A stretch of 64,000 nucleotides of DNA from Cyanobacteria bacterium P01_F01_bin.150 (GCA_039189765.1 JBCCYL010000024.1:1-64000), one strand, 5' to 3'. Shown: positions 4,324 to 61,000, numbered from the stretch's first letter. Translations and numbers: made by a program. Notes: generated by a model from the letters alone, not told the origin.

Positions 4324-4399
4324 TGGCTAAACGTACAGGATTCGAACCTGCTACAGTCAGATTAACGGTCTGATGCTCTACCAATTGAGCTAACGTTTA
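4324..4399 (-). tRNA. tRNA-Asn (anticodon GTT), 76 nt with encoded CCA; unusual C at position 33
   Basis: Hand-folded cloverleaf: acceptor TAAACGT/ACGTTTA, D-stem GCTC/GAGC, anticodon stem TCAGA/TCTGA with loop CCGTTAA, T-arm GCAGG-TTCGAAT-CCTGT, discriminator G, CCA. Confidence 0.7.
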
Positions 4400-4402
4400 A
4401 GT

Positions 4403-4478
4403 TGGTACACGATGTAGGATTCGAACCTACGAATTCCGGATTTTAAGTCCAGTGCCTATTCCACTCGGCTAATCGCGT
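4403..4478 (-). tRNA. Non-canonical tRNA, 76 nt, anticodon UAA (Leu-decoding) but class-I architecture (5-nt variable loop), encoded CCA
   Basis: Hand-fold: acceptor ACGCGAT/ATCGTGT (one G-U), D-stem GCC/GGC, anticodon stem CTGGA/TCCGG (one U-G) with loop CTTAAAA, variable AATTC, T-arm GTAGG-TTCGAAT-CCTAC, discriminator A, CCA. Confidence 0.5.
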
Positions 4479-4646: not shown

Positions 4647-7600
4647 TCAGAGACCGTCACACAATCTCTTATCTTCGTCTCTAAGCTCAACCGGGTTATG
4701 GGCAACATGAAAGCGAAGCCAATCACAGCCATGAGCTACCATTGCATCCAAGCTAAGTGCCTTTAAATCCCAGAGTTTAATCGTCTTGTCTGAACTGCCG
4801 CTAATGAGGGTCTTGCCATTAGGACTGAAACTCACACTGGTGACCCAATCGTCATGGCCTATGAAGCTGCGGAGTTGCTGACCAGTCGTCACATCCCAGA
4901 GTTTGATTGTTTTATCCGCGCTGCCGCTAACGAGAGTCTTGCCATCGGCACTGAATCTGACACCCATGACCCAATTGTCATGACCTATAAAGTTGCGGAT
5001 TTCCTCTCCGGTCGTCACATCCCAGAGTTTGATCGTTTTGTCTGAACTGCCGCTAACGAGGGTCTTACCATCAGGACTGAAACTCACACTATTGATCCAA
5101 TCGTCATGACCTGTAAAGCTGCGGAGTTCCTTCCCGGTTGCCACATCCCAGAGTTTGATCGTCTTGTCCGTACTGCCGCTAATGAAGGTCTTACCATCGG
5201 CACTGAAACTCACACTATTAACCGACTCGTCATGGCCTATGAAGCCGCGAAGTTCCTCCCCGGTCGTCACATCCCAGAGTTTGATTGTTTTATCCGCGCT
5301 GCCGCTAACGAGAGTCTTGCCATCGGCACTGAAACTCACACTATTAACCGACTCGTCATGGCCTGTGAAGCTGCGGAGTTGCTCCCCAGTCTCCACATCC
5401 CAGAGGTTGATTGTCTTATCCGTACTGCCGCTAATGAGGGTCTTACCATCAGCACTGAAACTCACACTCATGACCCACAGGTCATGACCTGTAAAGCTAC
5501 GGAGTTCCTCCCCGGTCTCCACATCCCAGAGTTTGATCGTCTTGTCTGAACTGCTGCTAACGAAGGACTTGCCATCGGGACTGAAACTCACACTACTGAC
5601 CAACTGGTCATGACCTGTAAAGTTGTGGGGTTGCTCCCCAGTCTCCACATCCCAGAATTTGATTGTCTTGTCTAAACTGCTGCTAACAAGGGACTTGCCA
5701 TCGGGGCTAAAACTCACACTTATGACTGACTCGTTATGACCTGTGAAGCTACGGATTTCCTGCCCAGTCGCCACATCCCAGAGCTTGATCGTTTCGTCCG
5801 CACTGCCGCTAACAAGAGTCTGACCATCGGGGCTGAAACTGACCGTGACTGGCTCGTCATGACCTACAAAGCTGCGGAGTTGCTCCCCGGTCGCCACATC
5901 CCAGAGTTTGATCGTCTTGTCCGAACTTCCGCTAACGAGGGTCTGGCCATCAGGACTGAAACTCACACTAATGACCGCCTCATCATGACCTGTAAAGCTG
6001 CGGAGTTGCTCCCCAGTCGTCACATCCCAGAGTTTGATCATCGTGTCCGCACTGCCGCTAACGAGGGTCTGGCCATCAGAACTGAAACTGACACTACTGA
6101 ACGACTCGTCATGACCTGTGAAGCTGCGAAGTTGCTCCCCAGTGGCCACATCCCAAAGTTTGGCTGTCTTGTCCGCACTGCCGCTAACGAGGGTCTGGCC
6201 ATCAGGACTGAACCTGACACGCAAGACGTGCCTGTCATGGCCTGTGAAGCTGCGGAGTTCTTTCCCGGATTCCACATCCCAGAGTTTGATCGTCTTGTCC
6301 GCACTGCCGCTAACGAGGGTCTGGCCATCGGGGCTAAAACCGACACTCCAGACCCAATTGTCATGGCCTGTAAAGCTGTTGAGTTGCTCCCCGGTCACTA
6401 CATCCCAGAGTTTGACCGTCGTGTCATCACTGCCGCTAACGAGGGTCTGGCCATCGGGACTAAAACTGACACTCCTGACCCAACCGTCATGGCCTGTGAA
6501 GCTACGAACCTTATTACTCTTTAACATAACTTGCTGTAATGCATTCAGCCCCTCTGGTTGAGTAATTTGGTACTTCTGAAGAATAGTGCCTGCTCGAATG
6601 GCTTCCATCCACGCCTCAAAATCTTTACCTTCATTTAAAAGCGTTAATGAACCAAGCCCTGATGATCGCGCCTGGCTCAACTCGGCTTGTTTGATCGCTT
6701 TCTCCGCTCGTTTTAGTTGCTGTACCGCAACACCCCCACCTACCAATGCTAATACCAGCAACGATGCCAACCCCCCAATCACTAGCCGTTGCAGACGGAC
6801 CGATCGCTGCTGATTCATCTCCACCACCAACCGACTTGCTGTCACATACTCCCCCTGCAACGCCGTCGGACTCGGCTGCTTCTCCACTGCTCCCAACAAC
6901 CACTGCTCCGCCTCAGCCAAGTCACTCCCCCGCAGCAGCACATCCTCCCGTCGCCCCTTCTTATCCCACTCGATCGCCTTTACCAACAACTGCGTGTGAA
7001 ACCGCAAATGCTCCGGGTCCGTATCCAACGTCCGCAGCAGCTCCTTAAAATTGGTATCAAACTCCCCCTTATTCGCCGTAAAATCAATCCACTGCACCTT
7101 CGCCAACTCCGGATGCAAGTCCTTCGGATTCACCGGACGATGCAGCACCGTCACCATCCGCTTATTCAGCTTCGCCGCATACTCTACCTCATCAGCACAG
7201 TACGGAGACCTCACCGCCCGAGGCGACAGCACAAACAGAAAAAAATTCGACGTTTCAATTCCCTTGTAAATCTCCTGCTGAAAATCCGCCCCCGACGCAA
7301 TACTTTCCTGATCAAACCAGGTGCGCTTCCGCTGTCGTTGCAACGCATTATTTAACCGCCGGGCAAAATCTGAATCCGCCCGCGAATAGGAAATAAACAC
7401 ATCCGGAGCCACCGCCGCCGTCTGACTTTGACTCGCCTCAATAAAATCCTCCTGAATCTCCGTTGGCCCCTGCCCATCCTTCGCCTTCGCCACCTCCCGC
7501 CACGCCAGCGCATGTTGCAACTCATAGCCCTGAAGCAAAATACAGGGATTGCGCTGCTGCCGCTCCCACTTTAGCGCCTTGGTCAACAGCACCTTATGCT

Positions 7601-8717
7601 CCTTGTGATAGGTCGCATCCTGCTTTAACACCCGCAGCAGATCATCCTCATCCTGGAGATAATCCGCCTCCGTTTCATTGTCCGTCAGGTCAATATATTG
7701 GCGATTGCGCAGGAACACCGGAATCTCAGCCTCCTCCACCTGCCCCGCCAGCATAATAATCAGCCGCTTATTCAGTTGCAGCGATCGCTCCAATTCCATC
7801 TGACAATACTTCGACTTCAGCGAATGGGACGACATCAGCAACAGCACATTATCCGCCTGCTCTACCCCACGGGCGATCGCTCCCTCAAAATCATCCCCAT
7901 ACTCAATATCCGCCCGATAGCTCCAGGTAGTGATGCCGGAGCGCATAAGCGATCGCCTCACCGTCTCCGTCATCGCCCCATCTTCCTCCGCATGGGCCAA
8001 AAACACCTGGGTCATCAAGTTGTCGCCATTCTTGATGCTCTCGGTAATGTACTCATAATGCAAATCCGTCGGCCACAGAGGCGGCTGCTTATCCGCAAAC
8101 CGAACCGCCAGCCACTCCACCGCCTCTTGTTTATCCTCCCCAGTCAACAAGTAGCGGGTCTGCTTCTGATGTCGTTCCCACTCCAGTGCCTGATTCAGCA
8201 ACACCGTATGCTGATGCACATAGCCTTTTTCCAACTCCAGCAGCGCCAATATCTGCTGCAACGACTGCTCAAAATCATTAATCCCTTCCTTACACTGCAC
8301 CCAGTTAATTTTGCCGATTTCAGGATGCATATTTGTGTGGCAGGAATGCAGTCCCTCCGATTCATACTCAGCCCACTGGTCATCCGTGCCATCCAGATTG
8401 CGCTGCTGCCAGATCTCTTGGTCAATGTTCTCTACATGCAGCAGGGGAATAATCCGCTTTTTCCGCTTCAGCGCCAACTCAATTTCCAGTCGGCAATAGG
8501 CCGAATTGGTGGCATGGGGCGCAATGACAAACAGGAAATTATCCGCTTTTTCAATGCCATCATCAATTTGCTTTTGGTAATCTACCCCCAACGGAATATC
8601 TTCAAAATCAAACCAGACGGTGTAGCCCAACTCAACTAAGCGATCGTTCAGGTTCTTGGCAAAGTGCTTACTGTCGGCACGACCATAGGAAATAAAGACA
8701 TCTTGGAGAGGATTCAT
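4647..8717 (-). CDS. Giant multidomain protein: three tandem TIR domains (aa ~5-135, ~236-325, ~438-530), single TM helix (aa ~645-666), 14 WD40 repeats (two predicted 7-bladed propellers)
   Basis: TIR signatures DVFISYGRADS.. and DVFISYSRADSDFARRL.., divergent middle TIR VFLAHAEEDG..; each TIR followed by conserved H..LL..A.EWE...R..LL.G..L..A..WL module; hydrophobic LVIGGLASLLVLALVGGGVAV; 14x GHD..V.SV.FSPDG..L.SGS.D.TIKLWDV repeats. Confidence 0.85.
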   Translation of the reverse strand: MNPLQDVFISYGRADSKHFAKNLNDRLVELGYTVWFDFEDIPLGVDYQKQIDDGIEKADNFLFVIAPHATNSAYCRLEIELALKRKKRIIPLLHVENIDQEIWQQRNLDGTDDQWAEYESEGLHSCHTNMHPEIGKINWVQCKEGINDFEQSLQQILALLELEKGYVHQHTVLLNQALEWERHQKQTRYLLTGEDKQEAVEWLAVRFADKQPPLWPTDLHYEYITESIKNGDNLMTQVFLAHAEEDGAMTETVRRSLMRSGITTWSYRADIEYGDDFEGAIARGVEQADNVLLLMSSHSLKSKYCQMELERSLQLNKRLIIMLAGQVEEAEIPVFLRNRQYIDLTDNETEADYLQDEDDLLRVLKQDATYHKEHKVLLTKALKWERQQRNPCILLQGYELQHALAWREVAKAKDGQGPTEIQEDFIEASQSQTAAVAPDVFISYSRADSDFARRLNNALQRQRKRTWFDQESIASGADFQQEIYKGIETSNFFLFVLSPRAVRSPYCADEVEYAAKLNKRMVTVLHRPVNPKDLHPELAKVQWIDFTANKGEFDTNFKELLRTLDTDPEHLRFHTQLLVKAIEWDKKGRREDVLLRGSDLAEAEQWLLGAVEKQPSPTALQGEYVTASRLVVEMNQQRSVRLQRLVIGGLASLLVLALVGGGVAVQQLKRAEKAIKQAELSQARSSGLGSLTLLNEGKDFEAWMEAIRAGTILQKYQITQPEGLNALQQVMLKSNKVRSFTGHDGWVRSVSFSPDGQTLVSGSDDTTVKLWDVVTGEQLNSFTGHDNWVWSVGFSPDGQTLVSGSADKTIKLWDVESGKELRSFTGHDRHVLRVRFSPDGQTLVSGSADKTAKLWDVATGEQLRSFTGHDESFSSVSFSSDGQTLVSGSADTMIKLWDVTTGEQLRSFTGHDEAVISVSFSPDGQTLVSGSSDKTIKLWDVATGEQLRSFVGHDEPVTVSFSPDGQTLVSGSADETIKLWDVATGQEIRSFTGHNESVISVSFSPDGKSLVSSSLDKTIKFWDVETGEQPHNFTGHDQLVSSVSFSPDGKSFVSSSSDKTIKLWDVETGEELRSFTGHDLWVMSVSFSADGKTLISGSTDKTINLWDVETGEQLRSFTGHDESVNSVSFSADGKTLVSGSADKTIKLWDVTTGEELRGFIGHDESVNSVSFSADGKTFISGSTDKTIKLWDVATGKELRSFTGHDDWINSVSFSPDGKTLVSGSSDKTIKLWDVTTGEEIRNFIGHDNWVMGVRFSADGKTLVSGSADKTIKLWDVTTGQQLRSFIGHDDWVTSVSFSPNGKTLISGSSDKTIKLWDLKALSLDAMVAHGCDWLRFHVAHNPVELRDEDKRLCDGL

Positions 8718-10527: not shown

Positions 10528-11835
10528 TTACCGATAGTCTTGGCTTTGAATATCCCTTAGCCGGGCTTCCGGACGTTTAAACCGATCGAGCTGAGTTTGA
10601 AAAAATTCGCGATTAGCCTGTAAGTGAGCTGGGTTTGGATCATCAAGGGGGTAAAGCAGGGCTTCTCGTAAGGCATGGATAACAGCAGAGGTGACGTTGT
10701 ACATGGAGCGCTGAAAGCTGACCCCCAGCTGAGTGATCATATCGTCTTCTCCTCGGCAATATTGCTTGTAATAGTCCACCAAGTAGGACGGCAGGAAGTG
10801 GAGCATATCTTGCATTAGCAATGTGGGTGGAATTCCTGCCGTCCCGACAGGAAAGAGATCGGCGTAAAGAATACCGTAGTGAAACTCTTCTTGATTGTTA
10901 GGAACCTGCTGGGCTTGAGCGTTATAGGATTTGGTGCCCCGGAAAGGGGATGTGCGGTAAAAAATGGCTTCAACATAGGGCAGCGCAGCTTCATAGAGCC
11001 ACATAAACCCTTTAGATTTTGGAATAATTTCGTAGCATTCGCCATCAATATAAGCGTGATGGTAAATAGGACGCCCGGACACAGCAAAGATGCCGTTCAC
11101 AAGAAAATCCATCGCTTCCGGAACAGTCTTTAAATTGCCCTCATCGTAAAGATCGGACATTTCGAAAAAGACGGCCGCCATCACCTCCCAGAACAAACCC
11201 AAGTTGGAATACTGAGATAGTTGCCGTACTTGTTCAATAAACATGTCAGGAAAAAGCTTATATAGTCCCAACATAACGGGATTGCTCTTGAAGTAGGCGC
11301 GAATGGCACGATCCGCGTTAGCCTTATATTCCTCAGTATCCAAGTAGGCATCAAACTTATTTACGGGAGCATACATGTGACGATGCCAAAGCATTGCCCT
11401 CATACAGGCCTCGGCAAATTCCATGTTGATGCGATCGTGATTCAAATGATGCAGCAGTCGAGGAAGGGTACGATTTGCACCTCCCTTCTTCATAAAGGCA
11501 AGCAGTTCAGGGTGCGCTTTTTCAGTGCCACGCCAAATTCTTAGGTCAGCATTGTCACCAGCATATTTGCTGGGGAGATCGAGATAGTCTTGGGAAATAA
11601 AGTACTTAAAAGCGGGAAGGGGATTGAGAAATACCTGTTCGGCAATGTAAAGCAAATCACGCCAGTAGAAATCCATTGGTACCGCATAGGCCTTATAGAT
11701 ACCAATAATTTGCATCAGGTTTTCAGGGGTATCCGGTAGCATGGACCCGCCTGCTTCCAGACGATGAATCACCTCAGCAAATTCATGATTTGCTGGGGGA
11801 AGGGCCGTAGAAGCAGGTGCGGTGGTAGTGGTCAT
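10528..11835 (-). CDS. cupA: CO2 hydration protein CupA/ChpY of the NDH-1MS high-affinity CO2 uptake complex
   Basis: ~435 aa, ChpX/ChpY family features, positioned immediately downstream of ndhD3 on the same strand as in canonical ndhF3-ndhD3-cupA-cupS operons. Confidence 0.8.
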   Translation of the reverse strand: MTTTTAPASTALPPANHEFAEVIHRLEAGGSMLPDTPENLMQIIGIYKAYAVPMDFYWRDLLYIAEQVFLNPLPAFKYFISQDYLDLPSKYAGDNADLRIWRGTEKAHPELLAFMKKGGANRTLPRLLHHLNHDRINMEFAEACMRAMLWHRHMYAPVNKFDAYLDTEEYKANADRAIRAYFKSNPVMLGLYKLFPDMFIEQVRQLSQYSNLGLFWEVMAAVFFEMSDLYDEGNLKTVPEAMDFLVNGIFAVSGRPIYHHAYIDGECYEIIPKSKGFMWLYEAALPYVEAIFYRTSPFRGTKSYNAQAQQVPNNQEEFHYGILYADLFPVGTAGIPPTLLMQDMLHFLPSYLVDYYKQYCRGEDDMITQLGVSFQRSMYNVTSAVIHALREALLYPLDDPNPAHLQANREFFQTQLDRFKRPEARLRDIQSQDYR

Positions 11836-11844
11836 AGTTCAGCA

Positions 11845-11895
11845 AGGGAGTTTGGGAGTTAGAGCGTTTGGGAGTTAAAGCGTTTGGGAGTTAGT
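11845..11895. repeat. STRR-like tandem repeats (GGGAGTTWGAGCGTTT)n in ndhD3-cupA spacer
   Basis: gggagtttgggagttagagcgtttgggagttaaagcgtttgggagttag. Confidence 0.85.
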
Positions 11896-11973
11896 TTGGC
11901 TAATAAACACGGCAGTGCTGTACTAAAGCTTAGCGTAGTGGTTGTTTATGAACAGTAAGGACCCTAATGTAGC

Positions 11974-13545
11974 CTAAAGGCTAGATATGGTAGTTGGCTC
12001 AGGAAAGGGAGATACCTGGGTGATATCGTAAATCAAATCCTTAATGGCAACGGTCTCAACAGAAGTCTCTGGAAATGCAGCCACCATCTCGGTTGCTGTC
12101 GCTTCACTCCACCGGACAAGCCAATTGGGTTGGATACCGAAGAAAAGAATAGAAAAAACTAGCATTAAGGCCGGAACTCGCTCCCGCCATTCCACTTTTG
12201 GGAAGTAGGCCACGGAATTATCTAAGCGCCCAAAACAGGTACGGTTCAGCAAAATGACAAAGTATACTGCGGTCAGTCCACTACCCACGACGCAGAAAAG
12301 AGTTTGGATGGGGAAAACGCTGTAGCTGCCTTGGAAAACAAGAAACTCAGCAATAAATCCGACTAATCCAGGGATGCCAGCACTGGCCATGCCGCTCAGG
12401 ACAAGGAGCGCACTGATAAGCGGTAAGCCACGCATCGGATTCATTAACCCATTCAGTACATCTAACTCACGGGTGCCAACTTTGGCTTCTACAACCCCAA
12501 CCAGATGAAACAGGATGGCCAATATAAGACCATGGGCAACCATTTGAGTGATGATGCCCACCATGCTTAGAGCTGTGAGCGATGATGCTCCAAGTAGGAT
12601 ATAGCCCATATGCCCGACAGAGCTATAGGCAACCATACGTTTGATGTCCTTTTGGGCGATCGCTACAACTGCACCATACAGAACGCTGATCGTTGCCCAC
12701 GTTGCTAGCCCTGGGGCAATCACTGTCCAAGCATCAGGAAAAAGAGCAAGGCCAAAGCGAATCAGACCGTATGCCCCAAGTTTTGCAAGGACCCCCCCCA
12801 ACAAAATGGCGACGGGAGCAGAGGCCGCAACGTAGGTATCTGGAAGCCAAGTATGGAGAGGAACCAGAGGCACCTTCATGCCAAAGCCCACCACGATAAT
12901 ACTTAGCAACAATATTTGAAAGCCAAGGGGAAGGACCTGACCAGCAAAAGCAGTGTAGGCGAAGTCAGAGGCTCCAGTAAACCAAATTAGGCCTAAAAAT
13001 CCCAGAACAATTAAGGCTCCTGACACTGCGGTGTAGAGCAAAAATTTTGTGGCTGCATAGTTCCGCTGTCCCCCACCCCAGATGGCAACAAGTAAGTAGA
13101 ACGGAATCAGCTCCACTTCGTAAAAAAGGAAGAATAGCAGCAAATTATGGGCCAAAAACGCCCCGGCAACCGCACCGCTAACCAGCAACATAAGGGCATA
13201 GAAAAGGCGAGGACGGTGGGTTCGTTCATCACTGCTATAAATCGCAATCCAGGTGAGAAAACTATTGAGGACAATCATTGGCAATGACAGCCCATCCACT
13301 GCTAAGTCATAATCCAACCCCAGAGCCGGAAGCCAAGGTAGCAGTTCCTGGAACTGAAAGGCAGGGTCTGTATAGTCAAACTGAGAGACCAGCCACAAAG
13401 ACCATAACAACACTGCTCCACTCAGGATTAGGGTTGTGATTTTTATGCGATTTGCTGGAATGGGCAAGAAACCAACGGCGATCGCCCCCACTACGGGAAA
13501 CCAAATTAATGTACTCAACACGGGCCAGATGATACCTCCAAACAT
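11974..13545 (-). CDS. ndhD3: NAD(P)H-quinone oxidoreductase subunit D (NuoM-like), CO2-uptake specific paralog
   Basis: Polytopic membrane protein with NuoM/NdhD motifs (..GLSLPMIVLNSFLTWIAIYSS.., ..TWLPDTYV.A.APV..LLGGVLAKLGAYGLIRF..); between ndhF3 and cupA. Confidence 0.8.
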   Translation of the reverse strand: MFGGIIWPVLSTLIWFPVVGAIAVGFLPIPANRIKITTLILSGAVLLWSLWLVSQFDYTDPAFQFQELLPWLPALGLDYDLAVDGLSLPMIVLNSFLTWIAIYSSDERTHRPRLFYALMLLVSGAVAGAFLAHNLLLFFLFYEVELIPFYLLVAIWGGGQRNYAATKFLLYTAVSGALIVLGFLGLIWFTGASDFAYTAFAGQVLPLGFQILLLSIIVVGFGMKVPLVPLHTWLPDTYVAASAPVAILLGGVLAKLGAYGLIRFGLALFPDAWTVIAPGLATWATISVLYGAVVAIAQKDIKRMVAYSSVGHMGYILLGASSLTALSMVGIITQMVAHGLILAILFHLVGVVEAKVGTRELDVLNGLMNPMRGLPLISALLVLSGMASAGIPGLVGFIAEFLVFQGSYSVFPIQTLFCVVGSGLTAVYFVILLNRTCFGRLDNSVAYFPKVEWRERVPALMLVFSILFFGIQPNWLVRWSEATATEMVAAFPETSVETVAIKDLIYDITQVSPFPEPTTISSL

Positions 13546-13689
13546 TAAAGCCTTTCTTACTAAGGGAGAGTTGACTCCAACCTCTTACCTTGACAGACAG
13601 AACTAGTGCTTTTTCAAGTTTTAATTTTGAGGTAAATCCCAGGGGATTTACCCCAATTCTTAAGGTTGAAAGAACACTAGAGAGATGAA

Positions 13690-15543
13690 TTAAAAAGCAG
13701 TGGACGACATAAACGATGTCCACCCCACCCAAATAGCAATCAAAACGCTAGCAATAGCAATGGTTAACAAGTAAGACTGGCCCTTCCCAGTATTGCTATA
13801 TCGCAAAGACTCTCCCGTTAATAGGGAAACAAATCCCACCAGGTTCACCACACCATCAATAATGAATCGGTCAAACCAATCCGTTAATCGGGATAGAGAC
13901 GCTACGCCCAAAACAATCGTGGATCGATATAGCTGAGGCGTATACATATCGTTGGCCAACATTTTCTGAAATCCAGGTAGGGGTAAACGTACAGGTCTAG
14001 CCACGACCTGACCAATGTAAATCACTCCACCAACAAAGCAGCCAACTGTACTGGACCATAGCAGCAGCAAGGCTACATCTTTATTTAGAGTGGCCCAACT
14101 AGGTAACAAACTTAGGTTTTGAAGAATAATCGGTAAATGGAGTGTCAAGCCCATTAAAGCCATCATTGGCAGAGTCACTAACCATGCACTTTCGGGCGAT
14201 CGCTCTGTCATCTGGGCGGGTTTACCGGCAAAGATTAGTCCAAACTCCCGCACCATACTTACGGCTGTTAGGAAGTTAACCAGTAGCAATACGGGAACAA
14301 GCCACGGATGAGACACCCACAGTCCGCTAGCCAACTTATTCAACGCCCAGAATCCGCCCAAAGGAGGCAGACCAATCAAGCCTGCGACGCCAACTATAAA
14401 ACAGATGCCAGAAATCGGGCGGCGGCTCCATAATCCTCCCATCAAGGTTAAATTCTGAGTAATGGAGTTGAGAATAATGGATCCACTGCTCATGGTTAGC
14501 AACCCTTGTGCTAAAGCATGACTGAGGATTAGAAGTAAAGCTGCCTTCGTGTGATGAGTAGCAACGGCTATAAAAACAAGCCCCATATAAGCGCTGACCG
14601 TGTAGGAAAGCGATCGCTTAATATCAATTTGAGCAATGGAAATAAGAGTTCCACCAATGGCGGTAATCGTACCGATAACAATCATTGTGGTCAGAGCCAC
14701 CGGAGATAAAGCCAAGACTGGCTCTAACTTGATAAGCACCCAAGCGCCTGTGGCAACCACAACGGAGTTTCGCAAAATAGTACTAGGCGCAGGCCCTTCC
14801 ATCGCCTCATCCAACCAAAGGTGCAGGGGGAACTGAGCACATTTCCCCATTGGACCAGCAATCAAGGCTAATCCTAGTAAAGCCGCTGTTCTTGGCTCCA
14901 AATCTGCGGTTTGCGCCCACTGCCCCAATTCACTAAAGTTCCAGGTCCCGGCAAGGGGATATAGGGCCAATACTCCCATCAGCAGAAATAGGTCGCCCAC
15001 CCTTTTAGTGAGAAACGCATCCCTCGCTCCTGTGACCACCAGCGACTGATTCAGCCAGAAGCCAACGAGAAGATAGGTCCCCAAGGTAAGAATTTCCAGG
15101 AGGATGTAGCTGAAAAACAGAGAGTTGCACAACGCAAGAGCACACATACCGCCCTCAAACATCGCTAGAAATGCAAAGAATCGCGCCCAACCCCAGTCCA
15201 TCTCCAAGTATCCAATGGCATAAATCTGAGCCAACACATTTAGTCCTGCAACTAAAATAGAAGCGCTGATAGTGATGGCTGAAACCTCGATAGGTAGGGT
15301 AAGTTTGAGCCCTGCCACATCAAGCCAGACCGCACTAATGTAGATGGGTTCACTCTGCCAAACAGCAGGAAATGCGATTAAACAGTGCAACAAGGTTGTT
15401 GCAGTGGTAAACAGATTTACATATCCCGCAGGACGAGGACCAGTGTGCTGGATCATTCCAGGTGACCACAACAGCGTCAAGACCATCCCCAGCAATGGAT
15501 AGCAGGGGATGAGCCAAGCGGTTTCTGCAAAATACTGTGTCAT
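13690..15543 (-). CDS. ndhF3: NAD(P)H-quinone oxidoreductase subunit F (NuoL-like), CO2-uptake specific paralog
   Basis: 617 aa NuoL/NdhF family membrane protein (..WLDEAMEGPAPSTILRNSVVVATGAWVLIKLEPV..); first gene of operon with ndhD3-cupA-cupS. Confidence 0.8.
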   Translation of the reverse strand: MTQYFAETAWLIPCYPLLGMVLTLLWSPGMIQHTGPRPAGYVNLFTTATTLLHCLIAFPAVWQSEPIYISAVWLDVAGLKLTLPIEVSAITISASILVAGLNVLAQIYAIGYLEMDWGWARFFAFLAMFEGGMCALALCNSLFFSYILLEILTLGTYLLVGFWLNQSLVVTGARDAFLTKRVGDLFLLMGVLALYPLAGTWNFSELGQWAQTADLEPRTAALLGLALIAGPMGKCAQFPLHLWLDEAMEGPAPSTILRNSVVVATGAWVLIKLEPVLALSPVALTTMIVIGTITAIGGTLISIAQIDIKRSLSYTVSAYMGLVFIAVATHHTKAALLLILSHALAQGLLTMSSGSIILNSITQNLTLMGGLWSRRPISGICFIVGVAGLIGLPPLGGFWALNKLASGLWVSHPWLVPVLLLVNFLTAVSMVREFGLIFAGKPAQMTERSPESAWLVTLPMMALMGLTLHLPIILQNLSLLPSWATLNKDVALLLLWSSTVGCFVGGVIYIGQVVARPVRLPLPGFQKMLANDMYTPQLYRSTIVLGVASLSRLTDWFDRFIIDGVVNLVGFVSLLTGESLRYSNTGKGQSYLLTIAIASVLIAIWVGWTSFMSSTAF

Positions 15544-15912: not shown

Positions 15913-16914
15913 ATGAAACCGCACCTTTGGCCTGTTGCCTCTGCTTTTACAGCATCCAAACATCGTAACTCTTCAATCGATTCTGAACTGGGTTCATCTT
16001 CACAAGTCGTTCAAGCAGATACTGCTATAGATAAAACTAAATCTTTGTTGAAAGATGGCGATAGGTTTTGGACGCCTGTTAGGCAGATGGGGCTATTGGC
16101 ATGGCTTCTGGGCAGTGCGGTGGCGTTCCCTTTGCTTGCTTCAGTTGTTCAGTCCTATACACTGCCTGTTCGAGTGGATAGATGGTTGGAAGTTCGTTCC
16201 ATTGATGGCGTGGTCAATTTCCATCGGAATAATCAAGTCCAGGCAGCAAATTATGATACGCGGTTGGAGCAGGTGGGCGATCGCATCACCACCGACAACG
16301 ATTCCAGTGCAACTTTGGCGGTGGATACAGGCATTGGGTTTGTCTCGTTAGCAGAAAATACTGATTTGCACGTTCAGGAATTTAGCATTACGGATAGTGG
16401 GGGCCGAGTGACTCGCTTGAATATTGTTACAGGGCAAGCGCGTTTACAGGTTCGACCGTTTCTTAATCCGGAGTCTGAATTAGAGATTCGGACGCCGGCT
16501 GGGGTCAGTGGTGTGCGTGGCACCCAATTTGGTGTTGGAGTAGCGCCGAATGGGCAAACGGGAATTGCCACCACAGAAGGACAGGTGTATGCATTTGCTC
16601 AGGGCGTCACAGTATCTATTAATCCGGGATTTCAAAGTCTAATTGTTCCGGGGCAACCACCCACGCCACCAATGCCGATTACGGACAATGTGGAGATTGA
16701 CATCACCCGTTTTCATCCCATTGATAGAAACCTGGTTCGAGTTGCGGGACGGATTGATCCATTTAGCTTACTGACTGTTAACGACGAGATTCAGGATGTT
16801 AATTCTGAAGGGTGGTTTAACATTCTTGTTCCCCGTCCTGGTAATGATCTCATTCCAGTGACTGTATCTACTCTCTCGGGCAAATCAAAAGACTATGAAC
16901 TGGCAGTTCCGTAA
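15913..16914 (+). CDS. FecR domain-containing protein (periplasmic sensor partner of CHASE2 kinases)
   Basis: FecR-domain beta-rich region (..[48 protein letters not shown]..), N-terminal TM segment; overlaps and precedes CHASE2 kinase as in conserved FecR-CHASE2 pairs. Confidence 0.7.
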
Positions 16915-53684: not shown

Positions 53685-54422
53685 ATGTATCAGCCTTTTC
53701 GTGAGCATTTAGAAACTGAGATATTTACTCGATTTGACGACCTTCAAGCTCGTCCTATTCCTCCTGGATTAGAGTCGAACGTTAGGAGTCATGGACGCCA
53801 CCCTGCGACGATTCAGAGCTGGTGTTATCAGTGCGGTCCTTTGCGAAAAATTCGTTACACCTACATTGATGCAGGTCCTGCGGCTCAGATATTTAACAGC
53901 GTCATTTATCCCGATCATCGCTACGATTTGCCATTCTTGGGATTAGACTTTCTGTCATTTGGCAGCGTTAAAAATCTTGTAGTTCTCGATTTTCAGCCCT
54001 TATTTCAAGATGAAGATTATCAAGAAAAGTATATTCATCCTCTGAGGGCTTTGCATGCGAAGTATCCAGATCTAGCTCAAGATCTGGAAATGAAGTACTA
54101 CGATGCAAACCAGTATTTCTCTAAGTGCCTGCTGTTTGCTAAAACCGATCCGGAAACCATTAAAACTAGGCTGTTTGAGGCCTTTAAAGACTATCTCAAC
54201 TTGTATTGGGAGTTGCTAGATAATGCTGAGCCATTTACTGATGCAGCGGACATCGAACGTATTGCTCAGGCTCAAAGAGACTATGATCAGTACAGTGCCG
54301 ATCGTGATCCTGCGTCAGGGTTATTCAAGAGCTATTTTGGTCACGAGTGGGCTGAGAAGTTTCTTTACGAATTCCTGTTCGAAGATGCTGAACCCGCTGT
54401 AGTGGGAGCGACTCGCACATGA
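53685..54422 (+). CDS. pebA: 15,16-dihydrobiliverdin:ferredoxin oxidoreductase
   Basis: FDBR family; ..[55 protein letters not shown].. ; 4-bp ATGA overlap with following FDBR paralog. Confidence 0.8.
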
Positions 54423-55192
54423 CTTTGTATCAATCATTCTTAGACTATGCGATCGCCCAGCTAGAAGAACACCTTGATATTCAACCCTATCCTATTCCGG
54501 AAGGCTTTGAGACAAAGTCTGCCATTGTCGGTAAAGGAAAGCATCAAAACGAGGTGCAAACCGATAGCTATGGTTCTTGTTCTCCAAAGCTTCGCCAGAT
54601 AAGGGCGGCCCATGTTAAGGGAGGGGGTGCGTTTCAGGTCCTTAATTTTGTGATTTTTCCCCACATTAACTACGATTTGCCATTCTTTGGGGCTGATTTA
54701 GTGACCTTGCCTTCAGGCCATTTGATTGCCATTGATATGCAGCCCCTGTTTCGGGATGAGCCTGAGTATCAGGCGAAGTATGCCGATCCAGTGATGCCCA
54801 TTTTTGAAAAGCATCAGCAAAATTTGCCTTGGGGTGGTGATTTTCCTGATGAAGCACAGCAGTTTTTCTCTCCGGCTTTTCTATGGACTCGTCCCAAGGA
54901 AACATCCGATGTAGAGACTCACGTGTTTGATGCGTTCAAAGACTATCTCCACGCCTACATTAATTTTGTTAAAAAGGCTGAACCTGTAACGGATGAAGCG
55001 AAGCTTCAGGAGATTGAAGCGGCTCAGTTACGTTACCTTCGGTATCGCGCAGAAAAGGATCCTGCCAGGGGGATGTTGACTCGCTTTTACGGCCCAGAAT
55101 GGACCGAAGAATATATTCACGGATTTTTGTTTGACCTAGAGCAAAACCTTGACCAAGAGCGACAATTAGCTAGGGCTGTGGTATTGGCTTGA
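54419..55192 (+). CDS. pebB: Phycoerythrobilin:ferredoxin oxidoreductase
   Basis: Second FDBR paralog (257 aa) ..[49 protein letters not shown].. ; canonical pebA-pebB order. Confidence 0.8.
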
Positions 55193-58074: not shown

Positions 58075-61000
58075 CTATAGTTCTTGGACAGCCCCTAGCT
58101 GTTCCAATGTCGATATTTCAGACTCCGTCAGTCCTTCAATATCCGCAATATTCATGCCATCATAGGGTTCTCGGTTTTTGATGATCTTCAGACATTTGCC
58201 TGTTTCGACGGACCATAGACGAATGGTTTTATCATCGCTGCCGCTAGCCAGTGTTTTGCCATCAGGGCTAAAATCAACGGCCCATACCGTATTTCCGTGG
58301 CCATTCAGGACATATACTCGCTTCCCCGTCTGCATATTCCATAATCGGACCGTACGATCTGCGCTACCGCTGGCTATCCACTGGCCATCTGGACTGACCG
58401 CAACAGAAATCACCCAATTTTCATGCCCTTTGAAAATTTGCTCACAAGCTCCTGTACAGGTATCCCAACGCCTGATGGTTTGGTCCATGCTGCTGCTGAC
58501 TAAAAAGTCTCCTTGCGGAGAAAACGCAATGCACCAGATGCCGCTGCTATGGCCTTTCCAGGTCGCTACACAGTCATAGGTCTCTAGGTCCCAAAGCTTA
58601 ATGGTGCGATCATAAGATCCGCTGGCCAATAGATTTTTTTCAGGATGAAAGGCAACTGAGCTGACCCAATGCCGATGCCCCGTTAGCGTTTGCTTACAGT
58701 TGCCCGTACGTAGGGTCCACAGCTTGATACTCTGATCAGCACTGCCGCTGGCTAAAAGGGTCGTTGCTGGATTGAAGGCAACAGACCAGACCGATTTTGT
58801 ATGGCCTGAAAAGCGGCGGTGCGTTCTTTTTTTACTATTATTGGGTTGCTTATTGAGTCGCCATAGGTGTACTCCGCCATCTTCATTGCCACTGGCTAAC
58901 TGCTGTCCATTTGGGCTAAACGCAACAGTCCAGATAACTTCTTGCACCTCTTTTAGGGTCTCTGAGGTGTTCTCCGCAGCCATATTCCACAGGTGCAAGC
59001 TGCGATCGCCCTGACCACTAGCCAACTGACGACCATCCGGACTATACGCCAGGGTCCACACCCAGTTGCCGCTGCCCTGCAATGCCTTTAGACACTGGCC
59101 ACTGCCCCGGTCCCAGAGCCGCAGGGTGCGATCTTCGCTGCCGCTGGTCAAATAGTCGCCGTCTGGACTAAAGGCCACGGACCAGACCCAATTACTATGT
59201 CCGGTTAGCACCCTCAGACACTGGCGTGTTTTCACATCCCACAAGCGCACCGTCTGATCCGCACTGCCACTGGCCAGCAGGGTGCCATCGGGGCTAAAGG
59301 TCACCATCCAAATCCAGTTACTATGCCCCTCTAAGGTATGCAAACACTGTCCCGACGGCATTTCCCACAGGCGAATGGTTTGATCGGCGCTACCGCTGGC
59401 CAACTGGCTGCCATCAGGGCTAAAGGCAACCGACCATACGCCATGCTTATGCTCTGCTAGGGTCTGCAAACACTCCCCCGTAAGTGATGACCAGAGTCTA
59501 ATCGTGCAGTCGGCGCTGCCGCTGGCCAAGTAGTCTCCGTTGGGTGCAAAGGCAACCGACCAAATGCCGTGCCCGTGTCCGCCTAAAATCTGCCGACACT
59601 CCCCTGTCTCAATGTCCCACAAGCGTACAGTACGATCAGCGCTGCCGCTGGCTAGCACGGTGCCATCAGGGCTAAAGGCGACGGACATCACCCAGTTTTG
59701 ATGTCCGTCAAAGGTCTGTAAGCACTCCCCTGTCTCCACATCCCAAAGGCGTACGGTGCGATCAGCGCTGGCGCTGGCCAGCAAGATGCCATCGGGGCTA
59801 AACGCAACGGAGCACACCCAGTTCTGATGCCCTTCAAAGGTGGCGATGTGGGAGCCAATATCGCCAGTGGCTCCTGGTGATGATGCAGGGGTTAGGTGCG
59901 ATCGCCACAGCCAGATTTCGCCGTTTGTATCCCCCGTTGCCAGTAAATTATCTTCCGTTCTAAACGTGATGGCGCGAATGCTGCCAAAAGGCTGATTAAA
60001 CAATGAATGGGTCAGATCAGAGCCAGAAAAGTTGACGTTGTGCAGCGTCAGTCCCCGCAGTGAGGTTTGGCGAATGGTGAGGTTAGAAAAGTCGTAGCCC
60101 TTTAGATCGACCCCCAGATGGTGCAAAAGGGTCAGGACATTGCCGCCTAGATAGCTGCGATCGCGCGTTGGCAGCGATTGCACCGATTCCAGGCAATCAG
60201 TCAGGGTTGAGGCTAAGGCGTTTATTGACGACCATTCTGTCTGTAGCTGCGACCGAATGGGGCCTAAGATAAGGCGAATTTGCGCCTGGTAGATGTAGTC
60301 ACTGCTATTTGCTTTCACCAAACCATGGGACCGCAGTCGTTTAGGTGTTTGGCTCCGAATCTCCTCACACACTTGCTCGATCAGCTCACCGGTAAAGTAA
60401 TCCATAATGACCGCCTGCTGAGTGATGCGAGAGCCACTTTTTTCCAGCAACGAACGCCGCTCCAGCGAGTCTATGGCCTGCAATAGCTTGTTTAGCGGCA
60501 CGGTTTCTACCATATCGGTCTGTAGCGATCGCCACACCACAGGCTCTCGACGAATCGCTAGCCAGTACATAATGTCTTGTTCCAGCGTCGTTAAGCGCTT
60601 CATCTGTCGCGCTAGCAGTTGCCTAATATCGCCAAAAATAAACAGATCCTGCTGTGCTAATTCCAAAAAAGCAGAAAGGCTGCCATCGAAATAATCCCTA
60701 ACCGCTGCGGCAATAATCTTAAGCGCCAGAGGATTGCCACCATAGACGTCAATTAGCTGATTCCATTCCGCCTCGGTTCCTGAAAATGAACGATTCACTT
60801 GGTCCGTGGCCTTGATTAGCGCCTGCCCCGCCGTAATCGAAAGCCCCGAAAGCTGAAAGCTGCGGATTGGCGATGTATCGATCGCCTGAATCGAGATTTC
60901 CTTGGGTAGCTCACGGGAGGTCAGCAAAATGCTGCTGCTGTGGTCGGTTTCACTCAGGGTTTTTAGCAGTTGACCATAGTCTTCATAGCCTGGAAGGTAA

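What the first reader, a model, noticed from the sequence alone, without database searches (positions are those of the whole stretch)
4647..8717. 1356-aa protein with three tandem TIR domains, one transmembrane helix and a double WD40 propeller
This architecture resembles a Toll-like receptor with its domain order reversed. Three TIR modules come first: two with canonical FISY.RAD motifs and a divergent middle one. Each is followed by a conserved ~35-aa helical module (H..LL..A.EWE...R..LL.G..L..A..WL). A single hydrophobic span (aa ~645-666) and 14 WD40 blades follow. Bacterial TIR domains are NAD+-cleaving effectors in Thoeris, CBASS and prokaryotic Argonaute defence systems. A membrane-spanning protein that puts a large beta-propeller sensor on one side and three TIRs on the other has not been characterised. 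The gene sits beside tRNA genes. Candidate roles are antiviral or abortive-infection functions, or cell-cell signalling in a filamentous cyanobacterium.
Basis: partly seen in the sequence, partly recalled or inferred. Interest (0 to 1): 0.75.

Follow-up and report, generated by a model that had tools for sequence, protein, structure and literature searches.

The report
Membrane receptor with three TIR domains
This cyanobacterial gene encodes a single-pass membrane protein with three catalytically intact TIR (NAD-cleaving immune-type) domains predicted to sit inside the cell and a double WD40 propeller outside, one member of a large, experimentally unstudied family that looks like a bacterial counterpart of Toll-like receptors built in the opposite order.

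Summary
ORF 4647-8717 (-) encodes 1356 aa: three TIR_2 domains, each followed by a conserved three-helix module, then one hydrophobic helix (aa 645-665) and 14 WD40 blades of 42 aa. The blades are 48% identical to 2YMU, a solved pair of 7-bladed propellers.

All three TIRs keep the catalytic Glu (E78, E308, E510), and it is kept in 119-121 of 121 relatives.

The gene belongs to a large family: at least 563 loci in species-representative genomes, mostly filamentous cyanobacteria plus a few filamentous Bacteroidota. The 3xTIR cassette and the membrane helix stay constant. The C-terminus is swapped between WD40, CHASE2, dCache and hemopexin.

Three family-level signals place the TIRs in the cytoplasm and the propellers outside:
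- Positive-inside charge bias.
- TM-flanked CHASE2 and dCache variants.
- Cys-free blades with one conserved Cys pair in the tail.

In 23 of 80 related loci the gene lies next to SLATT-peptidoglycan hydrolase, LSDAT-SLOG or patatin genes, which are typical receivers or effectors of TIR-made nucleotide signals. This window has none of them.

Best reading: an outside-in transmembrane receptor with a TIR NADase or signal-generating output. Enzyme activity, ligand and biological role are untested. I found no paper describing the family. Verdict: a new variant of a known kind, interest 0.68.

The parts
4647..8717 (-). Whole gene: 1356-aa protein with three [TIR + helical module] units, one TM helix, a linker, 14 WD40 blades and a Cys-pair tail
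8283..8705 (-). TIR1 (aa 5-145). Catalytic Glu E78 is at nt 8484-8486. It carries a family-conserved insertion of about 27 aa (aa ~95-125) that TIR2 and TIR3 lack.
   Evidence: Pfam TIR_2 E 3.9e-26; aligned to AbTIR; E78 kept in 121/121 relatives; insertion seen in the unit alignment
8022..8240 (-). Helical module 1 (aa 160-232): three helices, motif H..LL..A..W...LL.G.....A..WL...PT
   Evidence: no Pfam family
7668..8012 (-). TIR2 (aa 236-350), the divergent one (VFLAHAEEDG). Catalytic Glu E308 is at nt 7794-7796.
   Evidence: Pfam TIR_2 E 9.1e-23; aligned to Cat1; E308 kept in 119/121 relatives
7410..7628 (-). Helical module 2 (aa 364-436)
7032..7406 (-). TIR3 (aa 438-562). Catalytic Glu E510 is at nt 7188-7190.
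   Evidence: Pfam TIR_2 E 1.3e-30; aligned to Cat1, AbTIR and a plant TIR; E510 kept in 120/121 relatives
6810..7028 (-). Helical module 3 (aa 564-636). In the AF2 model its last helix (aa 619-655) runs without a break into the membrane helix.
6723..6785 (-). Predicted transmembrane helix (aa 645-665, LVIGGLASLLVLALVGGGVAV)
6510..6722 (-). Helical linker between the membrane helix and the propellers (aa 666-736). Poorly conserved; pLDDT is low (44-69) in the N-terminal model and 69-87 in the C-terminal model.
4749..6509 (-). 14 WD40 blades (aa 737-1323) forming two 7-bladed propellers. No Cys. Variation is concentrated at repeat positions 9, 10, 12, 28 and 38.
4650..4748 (-). C-terminal helical tail with the conserved Cys pair (C1331, C1353; family motif GC.W..DYL....LC)
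4324..4478 (-). Two tRNA genes (Asn-GTT, Leu-TAA) 168 bp downstream. They are neighbours only, with no demonstrated functional link.

Best explanation
The gene encodes a single-pass, N-in/C-out membrane receptor. The proposed layout and mechanism are as follows.

Inside the cell there is a conserved cassette of three [TIR + three-helix module] units. Each TIR has an intact catalytic glutamate. The last helix of the third module continues directly into the membrane helix.

Outside the cell (periplasm, or possibly the thylakoid lumen) there are two 7-bladed WD40 propellers built from recently amplified blades. The few variable positions in these blades are the likely ligand-contact sites.

Proposed mechanism:
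1. A ligand binds the propellers.
2. Binding changes the oligomeric state or the helix register.
3. The change is transmitted through the continuous helix to the TIR array.
4. The array rearranges into the TIR-TIR contacts that all characterised TIR NADases need.
5. NAD+ is then cleaved. This either depletes NAD+ or produces an ADP-ribose-derived signal for SLOG, SLATT or patatin-type effectors encoded elsewhere.

The likely biological role is defence or regulated cell death in a filamentous, multicellular bacterium.

Shown here: the domain content, the conserved Glu, the conserved TM position, the swapping of C-terminal sensors, the charge and Cys signatures, and the effector neighbours in relatives.

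Inferred: the topology of this particular copy, enzyme activity, ligand-induced activation, and the biological role.
For: Domains: three TIR_2 and 14 WD40 repeats. The TIR fold is confirmed by AF2 (pLDDT 83.9, pTM 0.72) and Foldseek matches to SARM1, TRR-2, TLR1, AbTIR and SPARTA TIRs.

Catalytic Glu: aligned in all three TIRs and nearly invariant in the family.

Conservation pattern: the cassette aa 1-620 is strongly conserved (column identity 0.55-0.88), while the TM and what follows are not (about 0.2). This is an effector-constant, sensor-variable pattern.

Sensor swapping: the same cassette plus TM is fused to WD40, CHASE2, dCache or nothing. The dCache forms are TM-dCache-TM and the CHASE2 forms are TM-CHASE2 followed by two or more TM helices. 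A Bacteroidota member adds hemopexin repeats.

Topology:
- K+R in the TM flanks averages 4.9 on the N side and 2.6 on the C side, with N>C in 141/167 proteins.
- The WD regions of 64 relatives have a median of 0 Cys per 100 aa, and 37/52 full-length relatives have exactly 2 Cys after the TM, both in a conserved tail motif. The cytoplasmic STAND-WD40 protein in the same window has 14 Cys in 619 aa.

Coupling: the TM follows the last module at a median of 15 aa in 128/144 representatives, and the number of modules equals the number of TIRs. In the AF2 model helix 619-655 runs from the last module into the membrane helix (TM core aa 645-665); pLDDT falls below 50 over aa 651-662.

Propellers: 48% identity to 2YMU, 14 blades forming two 7-bladed propellers. 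Variation falls at 5 of 42 repeat positions.

Signalling context in relatives: 23/80 loci carry DUF4231/SLATT_3 fused to C39-like peptidase and GH19 (15 loci; in 8 of these the SLATT gene lies 55-105 bp from the TIR gene on the same strand), LSDAT_prok SLOG (12) or patatin (6). TIR plus SLATT with a cADPR signal is the published type VII Thoeris arrangement (bioRxiv 10.64898/2025.12.03.692087).

Accessory character: several paralogs per genome, and plasmid copies beside transposases, AbiEii and an integron integrase.
Against: - No enzyme assay exists for any family member, and a conserved Glu does not prove catalysis.
- This copy has only housekeeping neighbours (esterase, fasciclin, ChpXY/NdhD/NdhF, Band 7) and no SLATT, SLOG, patatin or DUF928 gene anywhere in the 64 kb.
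- Its own TM flanks are not positively biased (3 vs 4 K+R).
- The closest solved WD40 relative (2YMU, 48% identity) comes from a cytoplasmic STAND ATPase, so an exported WD40 propeller is unusual.
- No topology predictor could be run.
- I could not inspect the model coordinates, so the relative arrangement of the three TIRs (pre-assembled or held apart) is unknown.
- 57 of 80 related loci show no effector neighbour either.
Confidence: 0.55

Rival explanations
1. General (non-immune) transmembrane signal transduction. The 3xTIR cassette would be an output domain, equivalent to a cyclase or GGDEF domain, that turns an environmental or cell-cell cue sensed outside into an ADPR-type second messenger. 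The outcome would be regulation rather than death or defence.
For: - CHASE2 and dCache, the alternative C-termini, are classical environmental sensor domains of signalling receptors.
- This copy sits among housekeeping genes.
- NCBI's automatic GO term for relatives is 'signal transduction'.
- LSDAT SLOG neighbours are ligand sensors rather than killers.
Against: - Recurrent neighbours include membrane-disrupting or lytic effector types: SLATT fused to peptidoglycan hydrolases, and patatin.
- Copy number varies between genomes, there is no synteny, and some copies sit on plasmids or beside IS elements and abortive-infection genes.
- The recently amplified blades with focused variation resemble immune-type sensors.
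Confidence: 0.22
2. The TIRs are non-enzymatic scaffolds. As in animal TLR/MyD88 signalling, the array would nucleate assembly of other TIR proteins or adaptors and would not cleave NAD+ itself.
For: - Foldseek also matches scaffold TIRs (TLR1, TLR6, MyD88, Hydra TRR-2) with TM-scores of 0.66-0.85.
- The tandem arrangement could act as a seed for a filament.
- No activity data exist.
Against: - The catalytic Glu is kept in all three domains in at least 119 of 121 relatives, within a conserved Y-C-x-x-E motif. Such conservation is expected for catalysis, and animal scaffold TIRs generally lack this Glu (established knowledge: Essuman 2018).
- Every bacterial TIR characterised to date is an NADase or signal generator.
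Confidence: 0.1
3. The hydrophobic segment is not a membrane-spanning helix, or the orientation is the reverse. The protein would then be a cytoplasmic, NLR-like sensor lacking an NTPase, with the WD40 propellers detecting intracellular ligands as in the STAND-WD40 proteins.
For: - The WD40 blades are close relatives of those in cytoplasmic STAND proteins (2YMU, 48% identity), and a second such protein is encoded in the window.
- The query's own flanking charges are ambiguous.
- No dedicated topology predictor was run.
Against: - A 21-residue apolar core lies at the same place in about 100 of 120 homologs and in 128 of 144 representatives.
- The family shows positive-inside bias.
- The CHASE2 and dCache paralogs have canonical TM-bounded layouts.
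- The blades are Cys-free and the tail carries a conserved Cys pair, while the N-terminal half has normal Cys content.
- There is no signal peptide ahead of the 640-aa TIR region, and the periplasm lacks NAD+.
Confidence: 0.08

Closest known systems
Animal Toll-like receptors (LRR ectodomain - TM - cytoplasmic TIR)
   Same: Single-pass membrane protein. A repeat-built solenoid or toroid sensor is predicted outside and TIR domains inside. The model predicts outside-in signalling. Tandem TIRs also occur in mollusc Tolls (PMC4929906).
   Different: - The domain order is reversed: type II (N-in) instead of type I.
- The sensor is WD40, not LRR.
- There are three TIRs, each with an extra three-helix module.
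- These TIRs keep the catalytic Glu typical of NADase TIRs, whereas TLR TIRs act as scaffolds.
- There is no evidence of common descent of the whole architecture.
Thoeris and related TIR signalling defence systems (ThsB; type III with multiple TIR proteins; type VII TIR + SLATT)
   Same: TIR_2/ThsB-like domains with the catalytic Glu. PADLOC ThsB models and NCBIfam ThcB4 hit at domain level. In 23/80 relatives the gene is adjacent to SLATT, SLOG or patatin genes, the same receiver and effector classes.
   Different: - There is no effector gene next to this copy.
- ThcB4 scores 96 bits against a cut-off of 220.
- Thoeris TIR proteins are cytoplasmic and sense infection inside the cell. None has a TM helix with an external sensor, and none has three TIRs fused in one chain with helical modules.
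Cyanobacterial and actinobacterial STAND (NB-ARC/NACHT)-WD40 and TIR-STAND proteins (e.g. Npun_R6612/WRAP, PDB 2YMU; Dunin-Horkawicz 2014)
   Same: Highly repetitive, recently amplified 14-blade WD40 sensor (48% identity to 2YMU). TIR as the N-terminal effector. Enriched in multicellular bacteria. Proposed innate-immunity-like role.
   Different: There is no NTPase switch domain: a TM helix replaces it. The blades are Cys-free and predicted to lie outside the cytoplasm.
SARM1, AbTir, TIR-SAVED, TIR-STING and SPARTA (oligomerisation-activated TIR NADases)
   Same: The TIR fold and catalytic Glu position are shared. Activation through TIR-TIR assembly is the likely logic here too.
   Different: In those proteins assembly is between separate chains and is triggered by a cytoplasmic ligand. 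Here three TIRs are covalently linked and the trigger domain is across the membrane.
CHASE2 / dCache one-component transmembrane receptors
   Same: Paralogs of this protein use exactly these extracytoplasmic sensors in their usual TM-bounded layout. CHASE2-type members keep the usual DUF928 neighbour: 5 of 7 loci, plus the Kovacikia plasmid copy.
   Different: The output is a 3xTIR cassette placed N-terminal to the sensor, not a C-terminal kinase, cyclase or GGDEF domain. The copy in this window carries WD40, not CHASE2 or dCache.

Membership tests
TIR domain superfamily (Pfam TIR_2, PF13676) | Sequence match above the curated gathering score, and a flavodoxin-like TIR fold | tested here: met
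   Three separate matches of 92, 82 and 107 bits against a cut-off of 28. The AF2 model matches solved TIRs with TM-scores up to 0.85.
Catalytic (NADase-type) TIR domains | Conserved catalytic glutamate at the position of AbTIR E208 / SARM1 E642 | tested here: met
   E78, E308 and E510 align with that Glu. They are kept in 121/121, 119/121 and 120/121 relatives.
Catalytic (NADase-type) TIR domains | Demonstrated NAD+ cleavage or ADPR-derived product | not testable with these tools
   This needs a biochemical assay. No paper on the family was found.
Thoeris (ThsB + ThsA-type effector operon) | An adjacent effector gene with a SLOG, Macro or SLATT sensor | tested here: not met
   The neighbours are esterase, fasciclin, ChpXY, NdhD/F, Band 7 and tRNAs. 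tblastn of SLATT, SLOG, patatin and DUF928 neighbours from relatives found nothing in the window.
Thoeris type III ThcB4 (NCBIfam NF058526) | Whole-protein score at or above the curated cut-off | tested here: not met
   96.3 bits against a cut-off of 220. Only the TIR core aligns.
Toll-like receptors | N-terminal LRR ectodomain, then TM, then a C-terminal TIR | tested here: not met
   No LRR family appears among the Pfam matches listed (best 25 of 65 families shown for the whole protein). The order is TIR - TM - WD40. It is an analogue, not a member.
STAND / NLR-like TIR-NTPase-WD40 proteins | A central NB-ARC/NACHT P-loop NTPase domain | tested here: not met
   Scans of aa 1-738 in pieces found only TIR families. 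The module HMM and a TM helix occupy the interval.
WD40 double beta-propeller (2YMU-type, highly repetitive) | 14 WD40 blades folding as two 7-bladed propellers | tested here: met
   14 Pfam WD40 stretches; repeats spaced 42 aa apart, with one 41-aa interval. phmmer E 2.7e-211 and 48% identity to 2YMU. 2YMU is described as two 7-bladed propellers. AF2 is all-beta from aa 738 to 1318 with pLDDT 83.8.
3xTIR-module-TM receptor family (defined here) | At least two [TIR + three-helix module] units followed within about 60 aa by a TM helix and a variable C-terminal domain | tested here: met
   The query has three module hits (E about 1e-26 each) and a TM starting 9 aa after module 3. The same layout occurs in 116/120 homologs and 128/144 representatives.
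Extracytoplasmic location of the C-terminal domain | Positive-inside rule, TM-bounded sensor paralogs, and a Cys signature of exported domains | tested here: inconclusive
   Met at family level. The query's own flanks are 3 vs 4 K+R, and no topology predictor or experiment was available.

The most novel reading that the evidence does not exclude
These proteins are bacterial cell-surface pattern-recognition receptors. Rapidly diversifying WD40 propellers, or CHASE2/dCache domains, sit in the periplasm, which is continuous along a cyanobacterial filament. They detect phage parts, wall damage or signals from dying neighbour cells. They then switch on a cytoplasmic three-TIR array that makes an ADP-ribose-derived signal or collapses NAD+, triggering lysis or isolation of the cell. 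This would be the first outside-in TIR immune receptor in bacteria and a functional mirror image of Toll-like receptors.
Probability: 0.3. Interest if true: 0.9.

Novelty: new variant of a known kind. Interest (0 to 1): 0.68.

Why it matters
All characterised bacterial TIR systems (Thoeris, CBASS/Pycsar TIR effectors, SPARTA, Cat1) sense infection inside the cell. A large family that couples TIR domains to sensors across the membrane would mean bacteria also run outside-in TIR signalling, the logic of animal Toll-like receptors.

This would also give a concrete, testable case for how TIR immunity relates to multicellularity, because the family is concentrated in filamentous cyanobacteria and filamentous Bacteroidota.

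The covalently linked, invariably catalytic triple TIR offers a natural model for how TIR-TIR geometry gates NADase activity. The SLATT-peptidoglycan-hydrolase and SLOG/patatin neighbours in relatives suggest new effector branches.

The family is big (at least 563 loci; the module profile hits 5350 cluster representatives), yet it has no Pfam model for its module, no PADLOC entry and no literature that I could find.

Tried and rejected
- Exact-sequence look-up of the protein found nothing on record.
- Conserved partners in this window: none found. tblastn of SLATT, SLOG, patatin, DUF928 and the unknown 447-aa neighbours of relatives gave no hits. None of the 80 loci shares the window's flanking genes; the only hit was a distant NdhD-like match (24% identity) in L058.
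- tRNA-linked island: no repeat of either tRNA 3' end anywhere in the window, and GC content is unremarkable (0.47-0.54 vs 0.45-0.53). I rejected an integrated island as an explanation.
- Promoter and terminator scan: nothing above shuffles.
- Helical module identity: no Pfam hit. The module HMM found it only in family members within 1 Mb of related loci and the window. In 31 of 31 sampled representatives it co-occurs with TIR_2. I therefore dropped my initial idea that it is a general juxtamembrane module shared with kinases or caspases, at least for the strong hits.
- Foldseek of the N-terminal model matched single TIR domains only and nothing for the three-domain assembly.
- The AFDB library was unavailable and model coordinates cannot be read, so TIR-TIR geometry could not be analysed.
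- Cys comparison: there were no other WD40 proteins in the related loci, so the contrast rests on the one STAND-WD40 protein in the window.
- Literature: six searches found no description of the family.
- Membership in Thoeris, TLR and STAND families was considered and rejected (see membership tests).

Full report
**1. Observation**

The ORF at 4647-8717 on the minus strand is intact and encodes 1356 aa. Pfam finds three TIR_2 domains, each well above the gathering score when the N-terminal thirds are scanned separately: E 3.9e-26, 9.1e-23 and 1.3e-30. It also finds 14 WD40 repeats.

A Kyte-Doolittle scan finds a single hydrophobic span. Its core is aa 645-665, the maximum is 2.36, and nothing else in the protein exceeds 1.6.

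The three units of about 200 aa (TIR plus what follows) align end to end at 28-40% identity. TIR1 and TIR3 carry VFISY(G/S)RADS. TIR2 carries VFLAHAEEDG. TIR1 has an extra insertion of about 27 aa.

The stretch after each TIR shares invariant H, LL, A, W, LL.G, A, W, PT and S. It has no Pfam family.

The WD40 region consists of 14 repeats spaced 42 aa apart, apart from one 41-aa interval. At DNA level it is a 126-bp tandem array with 82% matches. Two tRNA genes lie 168 bp downstream.

The description is therefore correct in every point.

**2. Catalytic residues**

phmmer against PDB sequences aligns each TIR with solved NADase TIRs. E78, E308 and E510 fall on the catalytic Glu of AbTIR (E208 in the published numbering, from my own knowledge). 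They also fall on the conserved Glu of the W/Y-C-x-x-E motif of Cat1, plant TIRs and SARM1.

In an alignment of the query with 120 homologs these positions are Glu in 121/121, 119/121 and 120/121 sequences. The preceding aromatic residue and Cys are also nearly invariant.

**3. A large family with a constant inside and a variable outside**

A search with aa 1-738 returned more than 1412 proteins at E<=1e-10. All named hits were filamentous cyanobacteria. The best hits were 75-81% identical: Merismopedia sp. SIO2A8, Leptolyngbya sp. SIO3F4 and marine cyanobacterial MAGs.

The same N-terminal cassette is joined to different C-termini:
- WD40 repeats, the majority.
- CHASE2.
- dCache.
- Nothing recognisable.

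Module and TM positions are almost fixed: modules at about 181, 381 and 581, and the TM at 637-695. dCache versions have a second TM after the domain. CHASE2 versions end in two or more TM helices. These are the canonical layouts of extracytoplasmic sensors.

Column conservation is 0.55-0.88 across aa 1-620 and falls to about 0.2 from the TM onward.

The best 80 were all cyanobacteria, and several genomes had multiple copies: Scytolyngbya HA4215-MV1, Coleofasciculus C1-SOL-03 and Allocoleopsis SMAG_U16471 each have three. Full-length WD40 forms of 1350-1580 aa are the commonest type.

A profile of the three modules alone hits 5350 cluster representatives (E<=1e-3) among 1.84 billion. Among 144 of the best 150, copy numbers were 2 to 7: 111 with 3, 21 with 5, 6 with 4, 3 with 7, 2 with 2 and 1 with 6. 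All 31 sampled representatives carry TIR_2, and the number of modules matches the number of TIRs. A TM follows the last module at a median of 15 aa in 128/144.

Members also occur in filamentous Bacteroidota:
- Flexithrix dorotheae, with WD40 plus hemopexin repeats.
- Bernardetia and Chondrinema plasmids, 42-44% identical over the whole cassette.

**4. Topology**

No topology predictor was available, so I used three independent family-level tests.

(a) Positive-inside rule. In 167 family proteins the 15 residues before the TM hold 4.9 K+R on average, against 2.6 after it. N>C holds in 141, with 17 ties and 9 reversed. The query itself is neutral at 3 vs 4.

(b) Sensor paralogs. CHASE2 and dCache are extracytoplasmic domains bounded by TM helices, and they occupy the position of the WD40 array.

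(c) Cysteine pattern.
- The query has 6 Cys in aa 1-644, none in the 587-aa blade region, and exactly two in the C-terminal tail.
- 37 of 52 full-length relatives likewise have exactly two Cys after the TM, in a conserved GC.W..DYL...LC tail. 46 of 52 have an even number.
- The WD regions of 64 relatives have a median of 0 Cys per 100 aa.
- The STAND-WD40 protein encoded at 58075-61776 of the same window, which has no hydrophobic helix and is presumably cytoplasmic, has 14 Cys in 619 aa.

Together these favour TIRs in the cytoplasm and propellers in an oxidising compartment. That compartment would be the periplasm or, in a cyanobacterium, possibly the thylakoid lumen. For this particular copy that remains an inference from the family.

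**5. Structure predictions**

The model of aa 1-738 (40-sequence alignment) has pLDDT 83.9 and pTM 0.72. For a chain of this length that pTM argues the three units pack in a defined way rather than as beads on a string. I could not read the coordinates to see how they pack.

Helix 619-655 runs from the last module straight into the TM. Foldseek matches are single TIR domains: SARM1, Hydra TRR-2, TLR1/6, AbTIR, SPARTA and MyD88.

The model of aa 641-1356 has pLDDT 83.8. It shows a long helix at aa 642-695, an all-beta region at aa 738-1318 and a C-terminal helix.

Its best PDB relative is 2YMU, at 48% identity, Foldseek E 3e-54 and phmmer E 2.7e-211. 2YMU is the 14-blade WRAP domain of Nostoc punctiforme Npun_R6612, which folds as two 7-bladed propellers. 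That domain belongs to a STAND ATPase proposed to act in prokaryotic innate immunity.

Variation among the 14 blades of the query is concentrated at repeat positions 9, 10, 12, 28 and 38. From what is known of WD40 repeats these lie around the top face. I did not map them on the model.

**6. Genomic context**

In this window the neighbours are housekeeping genes: Band 7, esterase, fasciclin, ChpXY, NdhD and NdhF. There is no synteny with any related locus, no compositional anomaly and no tRNA-derived repeat.

I clustered all flanking ORFs of the 80 related loci. The recurrent neighbours are:
- DUF4231/SLATT_3 proteins fused to a C39-like peptidase and a GH19 domain: 15 loci; in 8 of them the SLATT gene lies 55-105 bp from the TIR gene on the same strand.
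- LSDAT_prok SLOG proteins: 12 loci.
- Patatin: 6 loci, always together with SLOG.
- DUF928: 6 loci, covering 5 of the 7 CHASE2-type members.
- An unknown 447-aa protein: 7 loci.
- TnpB transposases: 6 loci.

In total 23 of 80 loci carry a SLATT, SLOG or patatin gene. None of these genes is in our window.

SLOG and SLATT are the receiver and effector classes of TIR-signal systems. A 2025 preprint shows TIR plus SLATT (type VII Thoeris) signalling through cADPR.

Plasmid copies sit beside IS elements, an AbiEii toxin gene, an integron integrase and a methyltransferase. The family is thus accessory and mobile, not core.

**7. Mechanism**

I commit to an outside-in receptor. A ligand binds the external propellers. 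The change is passed through the continuous module-TM helix, or through ligand-driven oligomerisation. The three linked TIRs are re-arranged into the head-to-tail contacts that every characterised TIR NADase needs. NAD+ is then cleaved.

The result would be NAD+ depletion or an ADPR-derived messenger for SLOG, SLATT or patatin effectors. Those effectors are encoded next door in about 29% of relatives and, for orphan copies like this one, possibly elsewhere in the genome.

Shown: domains, the Glu residues, the family pattern, the charge and Cys signatures, and the neighbours. Inferred: this copy's topology, catalysis, the activation mode and the role. Confidence is 0.55.

Rivals:
- A non-immune second-messenger receptor (0.22).
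- Scaffold-only TIRs (0.10).
- A non-spanning helix or a cytoplasmic sensor (0.08).

**8. Comparison with known systems and novelty**

It works like a Toll-like receptor turned around, but it is not one: there is no LRR, the order is reversed, and the TIRs are of the catalytic type. It is not Thoeris either, because no effector is adjacent and ThcB4 scores 96 against a cut-off of 220. It is not a STAND/NLR protein, because there is no NTPase.

PADLOC gives only domain-level hits: ThsB, SAVED_TIR, Aga TIR, PDC-S66 and HEAT-ARM_XIII.

Six literature searches found no description of this architecture or of TIRs coupled to extracytoplasmic sensors in bacteria. Databases already annotate hundreds of copies as 'TIR domain-containing protein'. 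It is uncharacterised, but not unseen.

I rate it a new variant of a known kind, namely a sensor-coupled TIR effector, with interest 0.68. It is a large family and a clear, testable hypothesis about surface immune-type receptors in multicellular bacteria, but so far there is no functional evidence.

Noticed in passing
window 58075-61776 (-): A second large WD40 protein of 1233 aa. It has an N-terminal HTH-like region, a P-loop STAND/NB-ARC-type NTPase (GIGGMGKTT), a pentapeptide-like stretch and about 14 WD40 blades rich in Cys (14 in 619 aa). It has no hydrophobic helix. It is the classical cytoplasmic STAND-WD40 type related to Npun_R6612, and I used it only as a Cys-content contrast.
   Followed up: partly
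window 4324-4399 and 4403-4478 (-): Two tRNA genes only 3 nt apart, both with an encoded CCA end and both scoring about 64 bits in Rfam. The one with anticodon UAA (called Leu) is 76 nt long and has a short variable loop, whereas bacterial tRNA-Leu normally has a long variable arm. This may be a remnant of a cyanobacterial tRNA array or an atypical tRNA.
   Followed up: partly
related loci L008, L014, L024, L025, L027, L029, L044, L049, L051 (e.g. L008 1877-4084): DUF4231/SLATT_3 two-TM domains fused to a C39-like cysteine peptidase and a GH19 (chitinase/lysozyme-like) domain. These lie immediately next to 3xTIR receptor genes and often occur as two tandem paralogs. This looks like a nucleotide-gated, cell-wall-degrading effector that I have not seen described.
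   Followed up: partly
related loci L025, L044, L049, L051 (e.g. L051 14199-15542); also L021, L029, L046: A conserved protein of 399-447 aa with no Pfam match recurs within about 2 kb of the TIR receptor gene. In four loci it lies just downstream of the SLATT-hydrolase gene. Its function is unknown.
   Followed up: no
related loci L042, L043, L055, L057, L069, L075: In Calothrix and Rivularia relatives there is a conserved three-gene arrangement: LSDAT_prok SLOG, then a patatin-like phospholipase, then the 3xTIR-TM-WD40 gene, all on the same strand. It has the appearance of a complete signal-receiver-effector system.
   Followed up: partly
P0121, P0122, P0124; P0010: Relatives with five to seven tandem [TIR + module] units in one chain of about 1300-2200 aa. 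P0121 has seven TIR_2 matches. The unit number is therefore itself variable in the family.
   Followed up: partly
window 10528-15543 (-): A ChpXY (CO2 hydration protein), NdhD-like and NdhF-like gene cluster, the specialised NDH-1 CO2-uptake module of cyanobacteria. It confirms the cyanobacterial origin of the window.
   Followed up: no
window 53685-55192 (+): Two adjacent paralogous ORFs of 245 and 257 aa that, from memory, resemble ferredoxin-dependent bilin reductases (PebA/PebB type). This was not tested with any tool.
   Followed up: no
window 15913-16914 (+): A FecR-domain protein. FecR, DUF928 and CHASE2 genes often travel together in cyanobacteria, but no CHASE2 or DUF928 gene was found in this window.
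   Followed up: no
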